Positions 1 to 6,482 of a DNA stretch of 6,482 bases are shown here, one piece after another. The translations under genes were made by a program, and so were the position numbers. Source of the DNA: a virus (taxonomy: Duplodnaviria; Heunggongvirae; Uroviricota; Caudoviricetes); the IMG/VR virus record IMGVR_UViG_2548876940_000005, positions 1-6,482 of that record; one strand, given 5' to 3'. The notes below the pieces were generated by a model. The model worked only from the letters and a program-made list of their open reading frames with translations, made no database searches and was not told the DNA's origin. The first letter of the stretch is position 1. Each line of letters opens with the position of its first letter.

Positions 1-302
1 GCCCCCACCAGGCTCTGCAGGTCCTCCGCCATCCCGGTGACCAGACCAAACAGATTCGACACCGTCAGCGACGGTCTGGCACTGCTGCCCTTCCCGTTCA
101 TCTCAAAACCGCTGCCGTCAATCGGGTATGCCTGATATTGCCGCCCCTGCCAGGTGACCGCCTCCCCTTTTTCATTCAGCTCATTACAGAAAAAATACCG
201 CTCACCGCCCTGCACCGTCAGGTCAATTTCCCAGAGCACCACCCGCGGTGACTGCTCTGATTTAACCGACTCGTTCAGACTTTCTTCGTGAATATCCTGC
301 AT
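1..302 (-). CDS. L: Minor tail protein L, N-terminal ~100 codons; the gene continues past the window start
   Basis: ATG at 302..300 on the minus strand opens a frame that runs without a stop to coordinate 1 (my translation: MQDIHEESLNESVKSEQSPRVVLWEIDLTVQGGERYFFCNELNEKGEAVTWQGRQYQAYPIDGSGFEMNGKGSSARPSLTVSNLFGLVTGMAEDLQSLVG). It is colinear with the lambda gpL N-terminus as I recall it. The start overlaps the M stop by 1 nt (TGATG), as in lambda. It sits immediately downstream of M. Confidence 0.9.
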   Translation of the reverse strand, partial: MQDIHEESLNESVKSEQSPRVVLWEIDLTVQGGERYFFCNELNEKGEAVTWQGRQYQAYPIDGSGFEMNGKGSSARPSLTVSNLFGLVTGMAEDLQSLVG

Positions 303-631
303 CAGTTCACCACCTGCTTAAACTCGGCACTGAATTCAACCCGCAGCATGCGAACCCGTGATGACCAGGCGGCACAGGTCACCTTTATCTGCCGCCAGGC
401 ATAAGGCGGTGTCCACAGAAACGCCTTCCAGCCACCGTGCTCTGCCAGGAATGCCTCCAGATGTCGGGCCTCCTCCCGGGTCACGGAAAGCGTCACACGG
501 TATGTTTTCAGGTCAGCATTCAGCCCCGCCGCCATACGCTGCGAATACCCGTCACCAAAACGCACTTCACGCACCGATGGCTGCGAGTTCACCTCCATAT
601 CCGGCTTCACTTTCCAGCGAAAGGTTTTCAT
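302..631 (-). CDS. M: Minor tail protein M
   Basis: 109-aa ORF (MKTFRWKVKPDMEVNSQPSVREVRFGDGYSQR...RVEFSAEFKQVVN), the same length as lambda gpM and near-colinear with it from memory. Its ATG (631..629) overlaps the H stop (630..628) as ATGA, as in lambda. Synteny H-M-L. Confidence 0.93.
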   Translation of the reverse strand: MKTFRWKVKPDMEVNSQPSVREVRFGDGYSQRMAAGLNADLKTYRVTLSVTREEARHLEAFLAEHGGWKAFLWTPPYAWRQIKVTCAAWSSRVRMLRVEFSAEFKQVVN

Positions 632-3138
632 CGCCTGCCTCCGGAAAAGACGCCGCCATCACGCATCTGCGCCTGAATCTCATCCTGCGCCCCCTTGCGG
701 GCCATGTCATACACCGCCTTCATCAGCTGCGGCCCCGCCTGTCCGTTGGAGCCGTCGTTCTGAATCACCACGTGATTGTTCTGATTAAAATTAATGCCTT
801 CCGTCCGCCGCATCTGCGCCGGACTTCCGGCACCGCCCACATAACCACCTTCCGCATACCCGCGCATCAGACGATACAGGTTGCCGACGCCAATCCGGCT
901 GGTTGCCTCCTTCGTGAAGACAAACTCACCACGGTGAACAATCCCCGCAGGCTCGTATTTGCCGCCAGTACCTGTAAAACCACCACCGGCAAACCCAATG
1001 GCACTACCGATACTCCCGACAATCCCCACCATCGCCTGCTTCAGAAAAATCTCTGTCAGCATGGAGAGCACCGAACGGGTGAAACCACGCCAGTTCTGTT
1101 CGCTGCCGGTCAGCATCGCTGCCATATTCTGTGCAATACCGTCAAAGGTCTGCGTGGCCACGCTTTTAACCTGCGAAAAACTGTCCATGACACTTTCCGC
1201 CCACTCCCCCCAGCCGGATTTCAGCCCGGCCATCCAGCTTCCACGAAGCTGCTCCTCCGCAGACCAGGTGTTCTTCAGTGCAGATGTGGCCTTCGCCAGC
1301 GCAGCCGGATTATCACCGTACACGTCACGAAGGCGCTGCTCTTCCGACTCCCGCTGCGCCTGACGGTCGGTGAGTCCGCGGGCTTTTGCGCTGATTGCCG
1401 CCTGCTTCGCACTCTGCTGCTGTTCAAACCGCGCAGCCTGCTGTGCCAGCTCATTCAGCCGTTTCTGGTGTTCAACTTTGTCTCCCAGCTCAGCCAGCTG
1501 GCGTTTGTACTCCAGCGTCTCTTTCTCATGGGTCAGCAGGGATTTTTCCTGCTCAGATAACTGCCGTTTCGTGGCTGCCTCTTTCAGGACCGCATACTGA
1601 TTTTCCGCTTTCCATAAATCGCGACGCTGCTGGCTGATTTTCTCATTCGCACCGCTGTGTTTTTCCAGCGTCCGGAGCTCGGTTTCAAGCGCCAGCAGGG
1701 CAGCATGCGCCTGGTCTTCCTGACGCTCACCGGCTGACACTTTGACTCCTGACGACTTCGGCTTTTTCAGCGTCGATTCATAATCCTTTTTCGCCGCCGC
1801 CATCAGCGTGTTGTAATCCGCCTGCAGGATTTTCCCGTCTTTCAGGGCCTTATTCAGTTCTTCCTGACGGGCGGTATATTTCTCCAGCGGCGTCAGCAGA
1901 CGCTCATACGCCTTCTGCGCCTCTCCGGTATACTTCAGCTGTGATGCGTCCCGTTCGGCCCGGTCCCTGGCGGCCAGTTCACCGGCTTTTTCCATATCCG
2001 ACTGCAGCGTGGCCGCTGCCAGCCCCAGACGGGCATTTTCCCGGTCATTCCATGCGCCCTGAAGGTTGGCCCGGAAAGAGGCGGTTTTTCCCCGGCGCTG
2101 GCTCCGGCTCTGGTACCACTGCCATTTTTTATCCGCCTCATCAAATGCCTTCTGTGCACTGGCGAGCATATCCGCTGAGGACTCAGGACGACCGATATCC
2201 AGAATGGCATCCCACATCGATTTGAATGCCTTCCCTGTTTTATCCGCCCAGGTCTCCAGTGTTCCCATGTTTTCTTTCAGGCGACGGGTCTGCTCATCAA
2301 AGCCTTTCGTGGCGATATCGTTCGCCGCCTGCAATGCCCCGGCCTCGTCTCCGGAACGCTGCAGCTGTGCAACATACGCAATCTGCTCTGCCGTCACGTT
2401 ACGGAACTGGCGCGCCATCGCCATCAGTCCCGACGTCGGGTCGGTAGTCAGTTTTCCGAAAGCCTCTGCAACCTTGTCCACCTCCACACCGGATGCAGAA
2501 GCAAAACGCGCGACACTCTGGTTGATGGCATCAAACTGTTCACCACCACGCACACCGGCATTCACCAGGGCTGCCAGTGACTCACTCGCCTGGTTAAACG
2601 TCAGCCCTGCGGCCTGTCCGGCTCTGGAGAGCGTCAGCATGCGATCGGCAGTCAGTCCGGACTGATTACCGGAAAGAACCAGGGTTTTATTAAACGCTGA
2701 AAGCGTGGAATCCCCCTGGTACCAGGCGTACGCCAGCGCACCTGTCGCCACCGCCAGCGAGGTGACCCCGACCATCGGCAGGGTGATCGCACCGGCAAGT
2801 CCCCTGAACATGGGGATCATCCCGCCGAAGGAGTCCTTCACCTGACCGCCCTGTTGCAGCAGGATCAGCCAGGGATTCTGACCACCGGCAAGCTGCGTGG
2901 CGATATCCGTAAACTGTGCGGGCAGGGTTCGCATGGCCGCTTTATACTGCCCGACGGAAATCCCGGCTTTTTGTGCAGCCAGCGCCTGACGACTCAGGTT
3001 CTGCTCAACAACACCGGCGGTTTTTCTGGCGTCAGTCTCCAGTCCGGAAAAATGACGCCTTACCCGGCTCATCTGCTCATCGAAACGGACCGCATCCAGA
3101 CTCAGGTCAATAACAAGATCACCAACCGGCTGGGACAT
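628..3138 (-). CDS. H: Tail tape measure protein H
   Basis: 836-aa ORF. The N-terminus (MSQPVGDLVIDLSLDAVRFDEQMSRVRRHFSG...) and C-terminus (...NNHVVIQNDGSNGQAGPQLMKAVYDMARKGAQDEIQAQMRDGGVFSGG) align with lambda gpH as recalled. It has a long Q/A/E/K/R-rich helical middle typical of tape measure proteins, and hydrophobic segments at about aa 112-140 and 689-720. A GGAGGTG Shine-Dalgarno lies upstream of the ATG at 3138. Position between G-T and M. Confidence 0.95.
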   Translation of the reverse strand: MSQPVGDLVIDLSLDAVRFDEQMSRVRRHFSGLETDARKTAGVVEQNLSRQALAAQKAGISVGQYKAAMRTLPAQFTDIATQLAGGQNPWLILLQQGGQVKDSFGGMIPMFRGLAGAITLPMVGVTSLAVATGALAYAWYQGDSTLSAFNKTLVLSGNQSGLTADRMLTLSRAGQAAGLTFNQASESLAALVNAGVRGGEQFDAINQSVARFASASGVEVDKVAEAFGKLTTDPTSGLMAMARQFRNVTAEQIAYVAQLQRSGDEAGALQAANDIATKGFDEQTRRLKENMGTLETWADKTGKAFKSMWDAILDIGRPESSADMLASAQKAFDEADKKWQWYQSRSQRRGKTASFRANLQGAWNDRENARLGLAAATLQSDMEKAGELAARDRAERDASQLKYTGEAQKAYERLLTPLEKYTARQEELNKALKDGKILQADYNTLMAAAKKDYESTLKKPKSSGVKVSAGERQEDQAHAALLALETELRTLEKHSGANEKISQQRRDLWKAENQYAVLKEAATKRQLSEQEKSLLTHEKETLEYKRQLAELGDKVEHQKRLNELAQQAARFEQQQSAKQAAISAKARGLTDRQAQRESEEQRLRDVYGDNPAALAKATSALKNTWSAEEQLRGSWMAGLKSGWGEWAESVMDSFSQVKSVATQTFDGIAQNMAAMLTGSEQNWRGFTRSVLSMLTEIFLKQAMVGIVGSIGSAIGFAGGGFTGTGGKYEPAGIVHRGEFVFTKEATSRIGVGNLYRLMRGYAEGGYVGGAGSPAQMRRTEGINFNQNNHVVIQNDGSNGQAGPQLMKAVYDMARKGAQDEIQAQMRDGGVFSGGRR

Positions 3139-3990
3139 ATCTCACACCTCCGGAAATCCCCGCTGAAGCCATCATTAATGCGACATCATCCTCGCTGACA
3201 TCCGCCACATCCGCAGACGATAAAATCTCACGCCCTCCGTCCCCACCAAACCGGACGCCTCCGGCAAGTCCTGCCGCTTTCTGCATCAGCATTTTTTCCT
3301 CATCCGGCATCTCCGTCTGCGCTTCCTCACGCCGGGGGGCAAGCAGACTGAAATCAGAGGGATGCATATCCGGATCGCAAAAAAACAGGCTGAGTACGGC
3401 GTACGTCAGCCCGGAAAAATGCATATCCAGTTGGGTATCGAGAAAATAATGCGTACGGTAAAAATGTCGCCAGTCGGCATATTCGGTGGATGTCATCCCG
3501 GCAAGCATGGCGCGCCAGTCAGGCCTCCCCATCTCACGCGCCAGTCTGAGGGCAAAATTCAGCTCGCCGTCGAAGACTTTCCCGCAGAAAAATCATCATC
3601 AGTCAGCGCGTTATTTTTCGCCACTTCGGTGCTGTCAGTATCCGCATGAACAGCCCCGCTCATCCCGGACAGACGCAACACCACATCTTCCGCCCGGGCA
3701 ATGGCATCCGCAGGCCAGGTGGTGAGCACCTCCTGTTCGATCTGCATCACAGCCTCATTCATTGACGGTGATGCCGTTTTCTGCGGATGGTTATGCCACA
3801 GGGACATCGCCACCAGAAACGCGCCGGTTCTGACGAGATCTTCCACGCTTACCTGCAGGTTGCCGCTGGATTCTGCCTGTTCTGCACGCCGTTTCAGGAG
3901 GGCAAGATGCTCAATACGCTGCAGCGCAGACAATTCGGAAAGCGTGACGGACACACCGTTATATTCAAATTGTTCTGTTTTCAGAAACAT
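3119..3990 (-). CDS. T: Tail assembly chaperone G-T fusion, made by programmed -1 ribosomal frameshift (G frame 3990..3577, then T frame 3577..3119)
   Basis: The T-frame ORF is in the -1 frame relative to G and is open from the slippery site down to the TGA at 3121..3119. T-frame translation from the slip site reads GKVFDGELNFALRLAREMGRPDWRAMLAGMTSTEYADW..., which matches the lambda gpGT junction and gpT sequence as recalled. There is no convincing independent RBS for the internal Met at 3532. Predicted fusion is about 290 aa. Confidence 0.82.
3559..3990 (-). CDS. G: Tail assembly chaperone G
   Basis: 143-aa ORF (MFLKTEQFEYNGVSVTLSELSALQRIEHLALLKRRAEQAE...SAGKSSTAS), near-colinear with lambda gpG from memory. 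GGAGGT Shine-Dalgarno 7 nt upstream of the ATG at 3990. It contains the GGGAAAG slippery heptamer near its 3' end. Position between V and H. Confidence 0.92.
   Translation of the reverse strand: MFLKTEQFEYNGVSVTLSELSALQRIEHLALLKRRAEQAESSGNLQVSVEDLVRTGAFLVAMSLWHNHPQKTASPSMNEAVMQIEQEVLTTWPADAIARAEDVVLRLSGMSGAVHADTDSTEVAKNNALTDDDFSAGKSSTAS
3577..3583 (-). other. Slippery heptanucleotide G GGA AAG (programmed -1 frameshift signal for G-T)
   Basis: Plus-strand 3577..3583 is ctttccc, so the minus strand reads GGGAAAG. In the G frame the codons are GCG GGA AAG (A-G-K of ...FSAGKSSTAS), which is the X XXY YYZ arrangement of the lambda G-T slip site. The -1 frame is open into T. Confidence 0.85.
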
Positions 3991-4003: not shown

Positions 4004-4756
4004 TTACCCTGCAGCGCCCGCTTCAGTAACGGTGACTTCAGCCACTGCGGCGAACTGACCATTTCCGCTCACCACAGGGATCTGCACCTTACCTGTCGCC
4101 ACGCCGTTTACCGTAATTGTCATATCTTTCACACTAATGGTGGCTTTCGACGGATCGGCGGAAACCGCTCTGAACGTCTTGTCGGTTGCACTTTCCGGCT
4201 CAAAAGAAACCGTCAGGGTGGTTGTTTTCCCTTTTGCCACCGTACCGGATGTCGGCGTCACCTTAATCGCACTGACCGGCGTAATTTTGCTGCGTTCTTC
4301 CGCTACAGAAGGTTTACCCACGTTAGTGACTTTCACCGTGCGGGTGATCACTTCTTTCGCCGTCACGGCCTTACCGATACTGCTGACCCAGCCACGAAAC
4401 ACATCCACCGTGCCATTCGGAAAACGGATTTTATAGGCCCGGACATCGCCGCTTTCAAACCAGCCTATAAGCCCTTTCTGGCCTTCCTCTCCCGGTTTCC
4501 AGGCCAGCGTAAAACTGGTATCACCTGCAGATTTCTGCCCCTGCCCGGTCGCGGTCCAGTCCGCGTCTTCATCATCCAGGTAGTTATCATCGTAGGATTC
4601 TGCCGTCATCTCGCCCGGCGTCAGATCCTTCACCTTAGCCAGTCGCTGCCAGTCATCGTCTGACAACGGGTTTGCATAAGCATCACCCTTGCCGTTGTAA
4701 ACCCACAGAGTGGTACCGGCACCTTTTACCGGCTCAAGGGGATTTGGTGTTGCCAT
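4004..4756 (-). CDS. V: Major tail (tube) protein V
   Basis: 250-aa ORF ([49 protein letters not shown]...), highly similar to lambda gpV across the N-terminal tube domain from memory. The C-terminal ~90 aa look like an Ig-like (Big_2-type) domain, as in lambda gpV. A GAGGA Shine-Dalgarno overlaps the U stop. Position between U and G. Confidence 0.95.
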
Positions 4757-4763
4757 ATCGTCC

Positions 4764-5159
4764 TCACATCTCGTATGTAATGGAATAAGTCAGATCTGCA
4801 GAACTCCATAACGCCATATCGTCATCACGACGATACTCATAGCCCTGCGTAACCATCGTGGTAATCAGTCCTGCCAGTGCCGGGATCGCGGTCATCGCCG
4901 GGTAAATCCGGCTTTCCATCCACTGATCAAGCTCTGAATCCGGTACCTGTGCCGGTAAAAACACCTCAATATGCAGCGTGGCCCGCCAGGTATCTGCATC
5001 CAGCTCTTCACCGGTATACTCTGCATCCGTCAGATAAACCGCGATCGCAGGAAAATCCTCTTCGTCAAAAACAACGGGGCGACCATCAAACAGCGTCGCC
5101 CCGTGTTCATGCTGCTCGAGTGCATCCAGCACTGCGGCACGAATGTCAGTGTGTTTCAT
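4764..5159 (-). CDS. U: Tail terminator protein U
   Basis: 131-aa ORF ([54 protein letters not shown]...[10 protein letters not shown]), the same length as lambda gpU and near-identical to it from memory. Its ATG overlaps the Z stop as ATGA (5159..5156), as in lambda. Confidence 0.93.
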
Positions 5160-5689
5160 CGTTTTATTGCAATCCTCAGTTGTTGTTTCAGCGCGTATGC
5201 CAGTTCTTTAGGCAGGCGTTCACGCCGGATACGGTCAACATTCTCATCAAATGCCTGTTTCAGTGGGGCCGCCATCGGGATTTTCACCACATCAATGGGG
5301 TAACGGTTTTTCCCGGCCACACGCTGCATGACATGCCAGCGACCATTTTTTAATCGCTGAATAAATGCCCGCTGATACCGATGCTGACCGGCTTTAAGTA
5401 TGCTGTTCGGGCGACGCCCCGGCATCCTGATCCCCAGCTTAATCACAGGGAGATCACCGCGGTTAACGATAATTCTGGCATTCGGATTTCTGACCGTCGC
5501 CCGTTTCAGTCTGGACCGTTCCTTAACCAGTTTCCGGCGAACCTTTGTCTCCCGGGCAACCTGTGATGAAGACTGATTAATCGCCGTTGTGGCCACGCGG
5601 TTAATGGCCATTGCTGAAGCCGCCGGAATGGCGTTTTTACGAACCCGGCTCAGATTGTCAATCGCCTGATCAAGCCCTTTTATCGTCAT
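5156..5689 (-). CDS. Z: Tail completion protein Z
   Basis: 177-aa ORF (MTIKGLDQAIDNLSRVRKNAIPAASAMAINRVATTAINQSSSQVARETKVRRKLVKER...). The N- and C-terminal regions match lambda gpZ as recalled. AGGGTGA Shine-Dalgarno upstream. Position between FII and U. Confidence 0.9.
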   Translation of the reverse strand: MTIKGLDQAIDNLSRVRKNAIPAASAMAINRVATTAINQSSSQVARETKVRRKLVKERSRLKRATVRNPNARIIVNRGDLPVIKLGIRMPGRRPNSILKAGQHRYQRAFIQRLKNGRWHVMQRVAGKNRYPIDVVKIPMAAPLKQAFDENVDRIRRERLPKELAYALKQQLRIAIKR

Positions 5690-5704: not shown

Positions 5705-6058
5705 TTATCGTCGCCGGTTAACTGCGGGTGGTTGACCACGGTTGAGCCAGAGATAACAGCTGCCCCCGTCATCCGGAGAAACACGATCCACCCAGAATAT
5801 CTCACCATTAATGGTCAGCGTGTCACCACGCCGCACGGCACGAACCGTATCCGTCCGCACAAATAATGACGGGCTGCTTCCTTCAATACGGACCCCGCTA
5901 CCGGCAAACCCCAGCGACTCCGGATCGTCAAAAACCCCCTGAACTTCGCTGCCACACTGTGCCCCCGAGGTGAACTGCGCACAGAGCCCCATCACTTCAA
6001 CAATCGTGCTGTCCACCCCGGCGAGGGCAGCATCAAAGGCATTCTGAAAATCACGCAT
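5705..6058 (-). CDS. FII: Head-tail joining protein FII
   Basis: 117-aa ORF (MRDFQNAFDAALAGVDSTIVEVMG...GEIFWVDRVSPDDGGSCYLWLNRGQPPAVNRRR), the same length as lambda gpFII and near-colinear with it, with a near-identical C-terminus from memory. Position between FI and Z. Confidence 0.9.
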   Translation of the reverse strand: MRDFQNAFDAALAGVDSTIVEVMGLCAQFTSGAQCGSEVQGVFDDPESLGFAGSGVRIEGSSPSLFVRTDTVRAVRRGDTLTINGEIFWVDRVSPDDGGSCYLWLNRGQPPAVNRRR

Positions 6059-6434
6059 GCTCAGCCGTTCCGTGCTGTATCATGGCTGTCGCCAGTGGTA
6101 ATGGCACCAGAACACGCATGCCCCGGTACGTCAGTTCAACGGGACGGCCTGTCTCCGGGCAATACCCCATCACATGCAGGCATTTCCGCACACGGACCGC
6201 TTTAACATCATCCGTAGCATCAGTGTTGTGCAACTGCTCACCATCGTCTGTGTGATTTTGCTCAGGCCCGCTCTCATCACCAGGCATAATGCCCTCCCGG
6301 GAAGCAGCAAGCTCCTCTTCCCACTCAGACACACGTTGCGCAATATCCGCAGCACTCCCCGCCATATCCGCCTCGCGCCCCAGCAGGCCAGCCAGTTGAC
6401 GAAGACGTTTCTGATTTTCTTCTTTTGTTGCCAT
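6051..6434 (-). CDS. FI: Putative DNA-packaging / head assembly protein FI (divergent allele)
   Basis: Assigned by position (between the end of the capsid gene and FII) and by architecture: a helical N-terminal region (MATKEENQKRLRQLAGLLGREADMAGSAADIAQRVSEWEEEL), an acidic low-complexity linker (PGDESGPEQNHTDDGEQLHNTDATDD) and a small C-terminal domain, as described for lambda gpFI. The sequence does not closely match lambda gpFI as I recall it. I prefer the ATG at 6434, which has an AGGGGG Shine-Dalgarno 5 nt upstream, over the GTG at the window edge used by the ORF track. Confidence 0.6.
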   Translation of the reverse strand: MATKEENQKRLRQLAGLLGREADMAGSAADIAQRVSEWEEELAASREGIMPGDESGPEQNHTDDGEQLHNTDATDDVKAVRVRKCLHVMGYCPETGRPVELTYRGMRVLVPLPLATAMIQHGTAEHA

Positions 6435-6438
6435 ATCA

Positions 6439-6477
6439 GCCCCCTGTGAAAAAAGACACGGGGGCATTTCGCCCCCG
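6439..6477 (-). promoter_or_regulatory. Two mutually exclusive GC-rich RNA hairpins in the leader of FI: the upstream one is followed by a U6 tract, the downstream one occludes the FI Shine-Dalgarno
   Basis: Minus-strand RNA 6477..6439 reads CGGGGGC-GAAAU-GCCCCCG-UGUC-UUUUUU-CACAGGGGGC. The central GCCCCCG can pair with the upstream CGGGGGC (7 bp, 5-nt loop, followed by UGUCUUUUUU) or, extended by UG, with the downstream CACAGGGGGC (9 bp with one bulged A, 8-nt loop), which contains the FI Shine-Dalgarno. Base pairing was checked by hand only; function is not established. Confidence 0.35.
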
Positions 6478-6482
6478 CTCAC

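What the first reader, a model, noticed from the sequence alone, without database searches (positions are those of the whole stretch)
6051..6434. Divergent FI allele in an otherwise lambda-like module
Every other gene in the window translates to a protein I can align nearly residue for residue with its lambda counterpart. The ORF in the FI position keeps the expected size and layout (helical N-terminal region, acidic unstructured linker, small C-terminal domain) but its primary sequence looks unrelated or only distantly related to lambda gpFI as I recall it. That points to mosaic exchange of the FI gene, which has to match the terminase and capsid of its phage. The FI stop (6053..6051) also lies 8 nt inside FII (ATG 6058..6056), whereas from memory lambda has a short gap there, so the recombination joint may sit at the FI/FII boundary.
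Basis: partly seen in the sequence, partly recalled or inferred. Interest (0 to 1): 0.45.

Follow-up and report, generated by a model that had tools for sequence, protein, structure and literature searches.

The report
Common FI packaging-chaperone allele in prophage
The gene is an ordinary, already-annotated member of the phage lambda FI DNA-packaging chaperone family, whose middle and C-terminal part is a swappable cassette that differs sharply between otherwise near-identical E. coli prophages.

Summary
The ORF at 6434..6051 (- strand, 127 aa) is real and is a true FI family member: Pfam PF14000 at 52 bits against a cut-off of 27, PHROG 92 at E 2.8e-45, and a predicted C-terminal domain whose best PDB match is lambda gpFI (2LSM). 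It is 28% identical to lambda gpFI. The other eight genes are 69-83% identical to lambda, not "residue for residue".

The module is not simply lambda-like. The nearest prophage with its head genes in view has a phage-21-type head (A-E 92-99% identical to 21). FII is 88% identical to 21. The tail is about 68-85% identical to both lambda and 21.

FI is a hypervariable island between conserved flanks. Against phage 21, nucleotide identity runs 100% (spacer), 74% (N-terminal domain), 35-44% (linker and C-terminal domain), 81% (last 21 nt) and 89% (FII). Synonymous divergence is also 3-8 times that of the flanks, which argues for exchange of old alleles rather than fast protein drift alone.

Relatives show another inside FI, at the conserved EEEL motif.

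The 8-nt FI/FII overlap is shared with phage 21 and is not a recombination scar. C-terminal domain type does not track the capsid protein. The exact protein is already in public databases, named FI. Low interest.

The parts
6051..6434 (-). FI gene (127 aa), DNA-packaging chaperone of the lambda gpFI family
   Evidence: ORF. Pfam PF14000 Packaging_FI at E 1.3e-13, 52 bits against a cut-off of 27, covering 3-122 of the protein and 1-129 of 131 profile positions. PHROG 92 at E 2.8e-45. The exact sequence is in public databases as 'DNA-packaging protein FI' on 59 contigs.
6306..6434 (-). FI N-terminal helical domain (codons 1-43), the conserved part of the gene
   Evidence: 74 of 75 near-full-length FI proteins fall in one cluster at >=60% identity; only lambda's own N-terminus is the outlier. 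Alignment A1 has 13 invariant columns here. Nucleotide identity is 74% to phage 21, 91% to L008 and 98% to L006. The AF2 model has helices 4-18 and 28-47 at pLDDT 81-88.
6308..6320 (-). GAAGAGGAGCTTG (E-E-E-L), a conserved motif at the end of the N-terminal domain that serves as an intragenic crossover point in relatives
   Evidence: L006 is 98-100% identical to the window up to this motif, then switches to lambda-type sequence. Megablast matches of L011 E-FI to phages break at FI nt ~93-126 on either side.
6204..6305 (-). Acidic, disordered linker (codons 44-77), hypervariable in sequence and length
   Evidence: pLDDT is below 50 for residues 48-74. 10 of 34 residues are D or E (read from the sequence). 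Nucleotide identity to 21, L008, L010 and lambda is 31-42%. dN/dS against PhiR12 is about 1.2, on very small counts of 2 synonymous and 9 non-synonymous differences.
6054..6203 (-). FI C-terminal domain (codons 78-127), one of at least 6 discrete allele types
   Evidence: Predicted four strands, a helix and a final strand at pLDDT 83-87. The best PDB match is 2LSM, the lambda gpFI C-terminal domain: TM 0.73 normalised on the target, rmsd 2.5 A over 54 columns, 22% identity. The domain types are 16-48% identical to one another. dN/dS within the type is 0.20.
6051..6058 (-). 8-nt overlap ATGCGTGA between the FI stop and the FII start
   Evidence: Read directly. The same overlap is present in phage 21 (7800-7807), PhiR12, L008, L010 and PhiR5_1. 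Lambda-type alleles (lambda, L006, L011) have an 11-nt gap.
5705..6058 (-). FII head-tail joining gene, the downstream conserved flank (21-type)
   Evidence: Pfam PF05354. 88% aa identity to phage 21 and 69% to lambda. Nucleotide identity to 21 is 86-92% along the gene, then drops to about 75% at the FII/Z boundary near 5732.
6435..6482 (-). E-FI intergenic spacer, the upstream conserved flank, with a GC-rich hairpin plus T-run and an AGGGGG ribosome-binding site
   Evidence: 100% identical to phage 21 and L006. Terminator-like hairpin at 6478..6458. Folding energy -20.6 kcal/mol, z-score only -1.87.

Best explanation
The ORF is the FI DNA-packaging chaperone gene of a lambdoid E. coli prophage. 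That prophage combines a phage-21-type head with a lambda-related tail.

The protein has the standard gpFI architecture: a conserved two-helix N-terminal domain, a disordered acidic linker, and a small C-terminal domain with the gpFI fold.

Inferred function, from what is reported for lambda gpFI: the C-terminal domain docks on the prohead's major-capsid-protein lattice. The rest of the protein helps the terminase-DNA complex engage the prohead, which stimulates cos cleavage and packaging initiation.

The low identity to lambda has two layers:
1. The whole head region belongs to the 21 lineage, which is about 46-65% identical to lambda in A-E (Nu1 only about 31%).
2. Within that lineage, the linker and C-terminal domain of FI (about 6305..6072) form a replaceable cassette. 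It exists in several old, discrete allele types. These are shuffled by homologous recombination at the conserved flanks, namely the N-terminal domain/EEEL motif and the FI 3' end/FII start.

The window carries one common type. Cassette type is not tied to capsid allele, so the capsid interaction is probably low in specificity.
For: Shown:
- Family membership: Pfam PF14000 at 52 bits against a cut-off of 27; PHROG 92 at E 2.8e-45, similar to lambda and 21 FI themselves; 2LSM is the top fold hit; position between E and FII in all relatives.
- 21-type head in the proxy L004: A 92%, W 99%, B 99%, C 98%, D 96% and E 95% identical to phage 21, against 46-65% to lambda. FI is 41% to 21 and 29% to lambda.
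- Island pattern against phage 21: spacer 100%, N-terminal domain 74%, linker 35%, C-terminal domain 44%, FI 3' end 81%, FII 89%.
- Synonymous divergence from 21: E 0.34 and FII 0.43, against N-terminal domain 1.0, linker 2.6 and C-terminal domain 1.67.
- Domain modularity: one N-terminal cluster but at least 6 C-terminal types among 75 proteins.
- Recombinants L006 and L011 join a consensus-type N-terminal domain to a lambda-type linker and C-terminal domain.
- Uncoupling from the capsid: L004 vs L006 have E 100% identical and C-terminal domains 22% identical. Isolated phages PhiR12 vs PhiR5_1 have E 95%, FII 97%, Z 99% and C-terminal domains 38%.
- Purifying selection within the type (C-terminal domain dN/dS 0.20) and a near-neutral linker.
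- Commonness: the FI region matches 1544 of 5426 complete E. coli genomes, 155 records at >=99%, and PGAP annotates it gpFI.

Inferred from literature: the biochemical role (prohead gpE binding, non-specific DNA binding, bridging to terminase, bypass by terminase and capsid suppressors), as summarised in PMC4856287 and PMC13595911.
Against: - No functional data exist for this allele.
- The head genes are outside the window, so the 21-type head is inferred from relatives. L004 is 96.3% and 93.8% identical to the window in two BLAST segments and 99.8% identical in the FI region.
- dS estimates in FI rest on 29-50 codons, are saturated, and depend on a low-identity alignment.
- The combination of 21-type E with a lambda-type C-terminal domain was found only in prophages (L006, L011, L012). 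It was not found in any isolated phage of the INPHARED set, so its viability is unproven.
- The Foldseek E-value to 2LSM is modest (4.3e-3) because the domain is small.
- A faster substitution rate in FI cannot be fully separated from older allele age.
Confidence: 0.85

Rival explanations
1. In-situ rapid divergence. FI has not been exchanged. It simply evolves much faster than its neighbours, because the chaperone is weakly constrained: a disordered linker, and a function that single terminase or capsid mutations can bypass.
For: Linker dN/dS is about 1.2, and FI has the highest gene-wide dN/dS in the window (0.40) in the comparison with PhiR12. FI is dispensable in vitro and bypassable by suppressors (PMC13595911).
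Against: Synonymous divergence is also 3-8 times higher in FI than in E or FII. The C-terminal domain is under purifying selection within its type, with dN/dS 0.20. C-terminal domains fall into discrete types rather than a continuum. Clear recombinants exist with sharp breakpoints at the EEEL motif.
Confidence: 0.1
2. Diversifying selection. The C-terminal domain and linker are diversified because a host defence system or a competing element recognises FI, so rare alleles are favoured and old alleles are maintained.
For: Several old, discrete allele types persist on near-identical backbones. This pattern is compatible with balancing or frequency-dependent selection.
Against: No dN/dS above 1 was seen in the folded domain. 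No defence-related gene or signal is linked to FI in the loci examined. I know of no report of FI as a defence trigger. The pattern is equally explained by neutral shuffling of old alleles.
Confidence: 0.04
3. The ORF is not FI but an unrelated gene occupying the FI slot.
For: Only 28% identity to lambda gpFI. No PDB hit by sequence. No NCBIfam model hit.
Against: Pfam and PHROG hits over the full length. Lambda and 21 FI also have no NCBIfam hit. The top fold match is 2LSM. A continuous chain of intermediate alleles links it to phage 21 and lambda FI.
Confidence: 0.01

Closest known systems
Bacteriophage lambda gpFI (NP_040588; C-terminal domain structure PDB 2LSM)
   Same: Same Pfam and PHROG family. 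Same gene position between E and FII. Same three-part layout of helical N-terminus, acidic flexible linker and small C-terminal domain. Predicted C-terminal fold superposes on 2LSM at 2.5 A.
   Different: Only 28% identical overall: N-terminal domain 41%, linker 16%, C-terminal domain 22%. 127 vs 132 aa. An 8-nt overlap with FII instead of an 11-nt gap.
Phage 21 FI homologue (UMO75424; 'ORF1' in M81255)
   Same: Identical upstream spacer. N-terminal domain 70% identical. The same ...A-x-Y/H-A C-terminus and 8-nt overlap with FII. The 21-type E capsid gene sits upstream in the window's close relatives.
   Different: The linker (17%) and C-terminal domain (34%) are of a different allele type.
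FI of isolated phages PhiR12_1/2/4/5 (PV340549-54) and E. coli prophage alleles (WP_001299692, P0001 cluster of 789 sequences)
   Same: Same allele type, 86-99% identical. Annotated 'DNA packaging protein FI'. Same genomic context.
   Different: A few substitutions, concentrated in the linker.

Membership tests
gpFI / Packaging_FI (Pfam PF14000; PHROG 92) | Significant full-length match to the family profile above the curated threshold | tested here: met
   PF14000 at 52 bits against a gathering score of 27, profile positions 1-129 of 131. PHROG 92 at E 2.8e-45 over 1-126.
gpFI / Packaging_FI (Pfam PF14000; PHROG 92) | Gene position between the major capsid gene E and the head-tail joining gene FII in a lambda-type late operon | tested here: met
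   FII lies immediately downstream in the window. E lies immediately upstream in relatives with an identical spacer. E itself is outside the window.
gpFI / Packaging_FI (Pfam PF14000; PHROG 92) | Two-domain architecture: helical N-terminal region, flexible linker, folded C-terminal domain with the 2LSM fold | tested here: met
   AF2 model. 2LSM is the top Foldseek hit: TM 0.73 on the target, rmsd 2.5 A, probability 1.00, E 4.3e-3. This is a prediction, not an experimental structure.
gpFI / Packaging_FI (Pfam PF14000; PHROG 92) | C-terminal domain binds the major capsid protein on proheads | not testable with these tools
   Known for lambda only, as summarised in PMC4856287. The comparative data here show no allele-level co-variation between the C-terminal domain and E.
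gpFI / Packaging_FI (Pfam PF14000; PHROG 92) | Stimulates terminase-prohead engagement, cos cleavage and DNA packaging | not testable with these tools
   Needs complementation of an FI amber mutant or an in-vitro packaging assay.
Lambda-type FI allele (lambda sensu stricto) | High identity to lambda gpFI, and an 11-nt FI-FII gap | tested here: not met
   28% identity. An 8-nt overlap instead of a gap.

The most novel reading that the evidence does not exclude
The FI linker and C-terminal-domain cassette segregates independently of the capsid protein it is reported to bind. Identical E proteins are paired with C-terminal domains only 22% identical. The lambda-type cassette travels with the lambda-type FII/Z genes downstream. 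This could mean that the C-terminal domain's specificity-determining partner is not gpE, or not only gpE, but something encoded downstream. Alternatively, several old FI alleles may be maintained by frequency-dependent selection, for example through recognition by a host defence system.
Probability: 0.07. Interest if true: 0.5.

Novelty: already known. Interest (0 to 1): 0.15.

Why it matters
It matters little for discovery. The exact protein is already deposited and named FI, its family, fold and role are established, and mosaicism of lambdoid phages is textbook.

The useful by-products are descriptive:
- FI behaves as a constant N-terminal domain joined to a swappable linker and C-terminal cassette, with recombination joints at the EEEL motif and at the FII start.
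- Cassette type is uncoupled from capsid allele.

If that uncoupling were confirmed experimentally, it would suggest that the gpFI-capsid contact tolerates very different C-terminal sequences. That fits FI acting as a low-specificity chaperone rather than a lock-and-key adaptor.

Tried and rejected
- A sequence search of PDB with the window FI gave only a spurious 0.62 E-value hit. Lambda FI does find 2LSM, so the link was made by fold instead.
- NCBIfam has no model that hits this FI, lambda FI or 21 FI, so that result is uninformative.
- Popovic et al. 2012 (JBC; PMC3442539) could not be read, by DOI or by PMC id. Its content is cited only through secondary summaries and my memory.
- A paper search for gpFI plus phage 21 found nothing. 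The lambdoid co-transfer paper PMC9836094 had no match for the terms searched (FII, 'packaging chaperone', terminase).
- I looked for co-variation of the FI N-terminal domain with Nu1 (terminase small subunit). There is none. L004 vs L008 are 36% in Nu1 but 86% in the N-terminal domain. Phage 21 vs L009 are 93% in Nu1 but 79% in the N-terminal domain.
- I looked for an isolated phage that combines a 21-type E with a lambda-type FI C-terminal domain. None was found in INPHARED at megablast sensitivity.
- GC content does not mark the cassette as foreign: 54-60% against 56% for the window.
- The + strand ORFs that overlap FI (6082..6255 and 6174..6449) are mechanical ORFs with no supporting evidence. 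I did not pursue them.

Full report
**1. What is in the window**

On the - strand the window carries a contiguous late-operon segment:
- FI (6434..6051)
- FII (6058..5705)
- Z (5689..5156)
- U (5159..4764)
- V (4756..4004, with a C-terminal Big_2 domain)
- G (3990..3559)
- T (3532..3119)
- H (3138..628)
- M (631..302)

Each product hits the expected Pfam family.

The FI ORF starts at ATG 6434, behind an AGGGGG ribosome-binding site. It ends at TGA 6053..6051, inside the FII start codon region. The overlap is ATGCGTGA, 8 nt.

**2. Checking the observation**

BLASTP against the lambda proteins (NC_001416) gives these identities:

| Gene | Identity to lambda |
|---|---|
| FI | 27.8% (full length, E 5e-9) |
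| FII | 70% |
| Z | 69% |
| U | 80% |
| V | 79% |
| G | 69% |
| T | 73% |
| H | 76% |
| M | 83% |

FI is therefore a strong outlier. The other genes are moderately diverged, not near-identical, and Z and H differ from lambda in length. Lambda does have an 11-nt FI-FII gap (7600 to 7612).

**3. Is it FI?**

Yes.
- Pfam PF14000 Packaging_FI: 52 bits against a gathering score of 27, covering almost the whole profile.
- PHROG 92 'DNA packaging chaperone FI': E 2.8e-45. Lambda FI scores 3.2e-51 and phage 21 FI 1.4e-43.
- An AlphaFold2 model built on 26 homologues has mean pLDDT 74. It shows helices at 4-18 and 28-47, a disordered stretch at 48-74, and a strand-rich domain at 77-126.
- The best PDB match of that model is 2LSM, the NMR structure of the lambda gpFI C-terminal domain. 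TM-score is 0.73 normalised on the target, rmsd 2.5 A over 54 columns, 22% identity.
- The exact 127-aa sequence is already in NCBI, UniRef and ENA on 59 contigs as 'DNA-packaging protein FI'. It belongs to a 90%-identity cluster of 789 sequences.
- The FI region matches 1544 of 5426 complete E. coli genomes, with 155 records at >=99% identity. PGAP labels the gene gpFI.
- The whole window is 98.6% identical to prophages of O55:H7 strains and related E. coli.

**4. The backbone is not lambda**

The head genes lie outside the window, so I used a proxy: a prophage of E. coli 13E0767 (L004). It is 96.3% and 93.8% identical to the window in two BLAST segments, and 99.8% identical across the FI region.

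Identities of the proxy (L004) proteins:

| Protein(s) | vs phage 21 | vs lambda |
|---|---|---|
| A, W, B, C, D, E | 92, 99, 99, 98, 96, 95% | 46-65% |
| FI | 41% | 29% |
| FII | 88% | 69% |
| Z to M | about 68-85% | about 69-81% |
| Nu1 | 29% | 31% |

Lambda FI and phage 21 FI are themselves only 24% identical. Lambda and 21 have nearly identical tails. Nu1 is a second outlier.

The phage therefore has a 21-type head, a 21-type FII, and a tail of a third lineage related to lambda and 21.

**5. Where identity drops**

A MAFFT alignment of the E-FI-FII region (A3) was scored by segment.

| Segment (window coordinates) | vs phage 21 | vs L006 |
|---|---|---|
| E-FI spacer 6482-6435 | 100% | 100% |
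| FI N-terminal domain 6434-6306 | 74% | 98% |
| Linker 6305-6204 | 35% | 32% |
| C-terminal domain 6203-6072 | 44% | 39% |
| Last 21 nt of FI 6071-6051 | 81% | 25% |
| First 90 nt of FII | 89% | 51% |

Identity to phage 21 stays at 86-92% through FII. It then falls to about 75% at the FII/Z boundary near 5732. From there the profiles against 21 and lambda coincide.

Relative to its 21-type flanks, the variable segment is about 6305..6072.

The 8-nt overlap, however, is present in phage 21, PhiR12, PhiR5_1, L008 and L010. It is an inherited feature of the 21-type FI-FII junction. Lambda-type alleles (lambda, L006, L011) have the 11-nt gap.

**6. Modular structure of FI alleles**

A database search returned 109 homologues. 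In the alignment (A1) the N-terminal 43 residues are strongly conserved. The consensus is MATKEENLKRLRELAGxLGREPDxSGSAADIAQRVAEWEEEL. Lambda's own N-terminus is the outlier. The linker varies in both sequence and length.

Clustering 75 near-full-length proteins at 60% identity gave:
- one N-terminal cluster plus lambda;
- four main C-terminal domain types (window type, lambda type, 21 type, and a Citrobacter/E. coli type);
- two singletons that look like further real types;
- a few frameshifted entries.

The C-terminal domain types are 16-48% identical to one another.

Recombinant alleles exist. P0072 (locus L006) has an N-terminal domain 95% identical to that of the window's proxy L004 (98% nt identity to the window itself). 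This is joined to a lambda-type linker and a C-terminal domain 98% identical to lambda's, followed by lambda-type FII and Z. The switch occurs exactly at GAAGAGGAGCTTG, window 6320..6308. Megablast matches of another such prophage (L011) to isolated phages break on either side of the same motif.

**7. Exchange or fast drift?**

*Against phage 21:*

| Region | dS |
|---|---|
| E (from the proxy) | 0.34 |
| FII | 0.43 |
| FI N-terminal domain | 1.0 |
| FI linker | 2.6 |
| FI C-terminal domain | 1.67 |

The excess divergence is not confined to amino-acid changes. This points to older alleles brought in by recombination, not just relaxed protein constraint.

*Against PhiR12, which has the same allele type:*
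- FI has the highest dN/dS in the window, 0.40.
- That value is driven by the linker, at about 1.2 (2 synonymous and 9 non-synonymous changes).
- The C-terminal domain is at 0.20, so it is under purifying selection.

There is no sign of positive selection. The counts are small and the between-type comparisons are saturated, so this is supportive rather than conclusive.

**8. Does FI have to match capsid and terminase?**

The comparative data say no, at least at allele level.
- L004 and L006 have 100% identical E proteins, but FI C-terminal domains only 22% identical.
- L011 pairs a 21-type E (95% to 21, 62% to lambda) with a lambda-type C-terminal domain (94%).
- Among phages isolated on E. 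coli C or K-12, PhiR12 and PhiR5_1 have E 95%, FII 97% and Z 99% identical. Their FI linkers are 24% identical and their C-terminal domains 38%.
- N-terminal domain identity does not track Nu1 identity either.

One caveat applies. The specific pairing of a 21-type E with a lambda-type C-terminal domain was seen only in prophages, not in an isolated phage.

**9. Mechanism**

*Shown here:* family, architecture, fold, genomic position and mosaic boundaries.

*Inferred from lambda work*, as summarised in PMC4856287 and PMC13595911:
- gpFI binds the gpE lattice of proheads.
- It helps the terminase-DNA complex engage the prohead, through non-specific DNA binding or bridging.
- It stimulates cos cleavage in vivo, and raises in-vitro packaging about 200-fold.

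From memory of Popovic et al. 2012, which I could not read here, the C-terminal domain is the head-binding part.

The free shuffling of C-terminal cassettes on constant capsids fits a low-specificity chaperone contact.

**10. Verdict**

This is a real but ordinary feature: a common, already-annotated FI allele in a 21-headed lambdoid E. coli prophage. The framing was not right on three points: the lambda-like backbone, the overlap as a recombination scar, and the requirement to match the capsid. Interest is low and novelty is 'already known'.

Noticed in passing
window 6458-6478 (- strand): A GC-rich hairpin (9 pairs, 7 of them G-C) followed by TCTTTTTT sits between the capsid gene E (outside the window) and FI. 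It is 100% conserved in phage 21 and L006. Lambda has a different hairpin at the same place. It looks like an intrinsic terminator or an mRNA-stabilising stem inside the late operon. The folding z-score is only -1.87.
   Followed up: partly
window 3577-3583 (- strand): GGGAAAG, the lambda G-T -1 frameshift heptamer, lies 16 nt upstream of the G stop codon. The tail assembly chaperone G/GT frameshift therefore appears to be conserved.
   Followed up: partly
window ~984-995 (H gene): The tape-measure protein H is 836 aa here, against 859 aa in the closest proxy prophage (L004) and 853 aa in lambda. The BLAST alignment to the proxy breaks here with 69 nt (23 codons) missing from the window. This implies a slightly shorter tail.
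   Followed up: no
window 5283-5332 (Z gene): A 50-nt block is 98-100% identical to both lambda and phage 21, amid flanks at about 72%. It may be a small gene-conversion patch or a strongly constrained segment. Z is also 15 aa shorter (177 aa) than in lambda and 21 (192 aa).
   Followed up: no
L004 4844-5353 (Nu1 of the proxy prophage, outside the window): The terminase small subunit Nu1 is a second sharp outlier in the 21-type head module: 29% identical to phage 21 and 31% to lambda, while the adjacent large subunit A is 92% identical to 21. At least five Nu1 types occur among nine related loci. This suggests swapping of cos-recognition specificity independent of FI type.
   Followed up: partly
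FI model m5d23f1c86345, residues ~77-127 (window 6054-6203): After 2LSM, the next Foldseek PDB hits are B-domains of archaeal and eukaryotic GINS subunits (5GHS/5GHR, 2EHO, 9MOJ), with probability 0.95-1.0 over about 50 residues. This may be a coincidental small-fold similarity.
   Followed up: no
FI protein vs PHROGs: The last ~120 positions of the 481-position profile phrog_2353 ('major head protein') match FI (E 2e-12). phrog_15460 ('terminase', 80 positions) matches the FI N-terminal half. These suggest E-FI fusions or read-through annotations, and mislabelled FI fragments, in phage databases. FI-FII fusion ORFs also occur (P0050, 192 aa, with PF14000 and PF05354).
   Followed up: no
L009 10987-18402: In one relative (E. 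coli GCA_036931565.1), a Mu-like transposable prophage (repressor, transposase A, MuB, Kil, Gam, GemA) is inserted right after gene U of the lambdoid prophage and interrupts its tail module.
   Followed up: no
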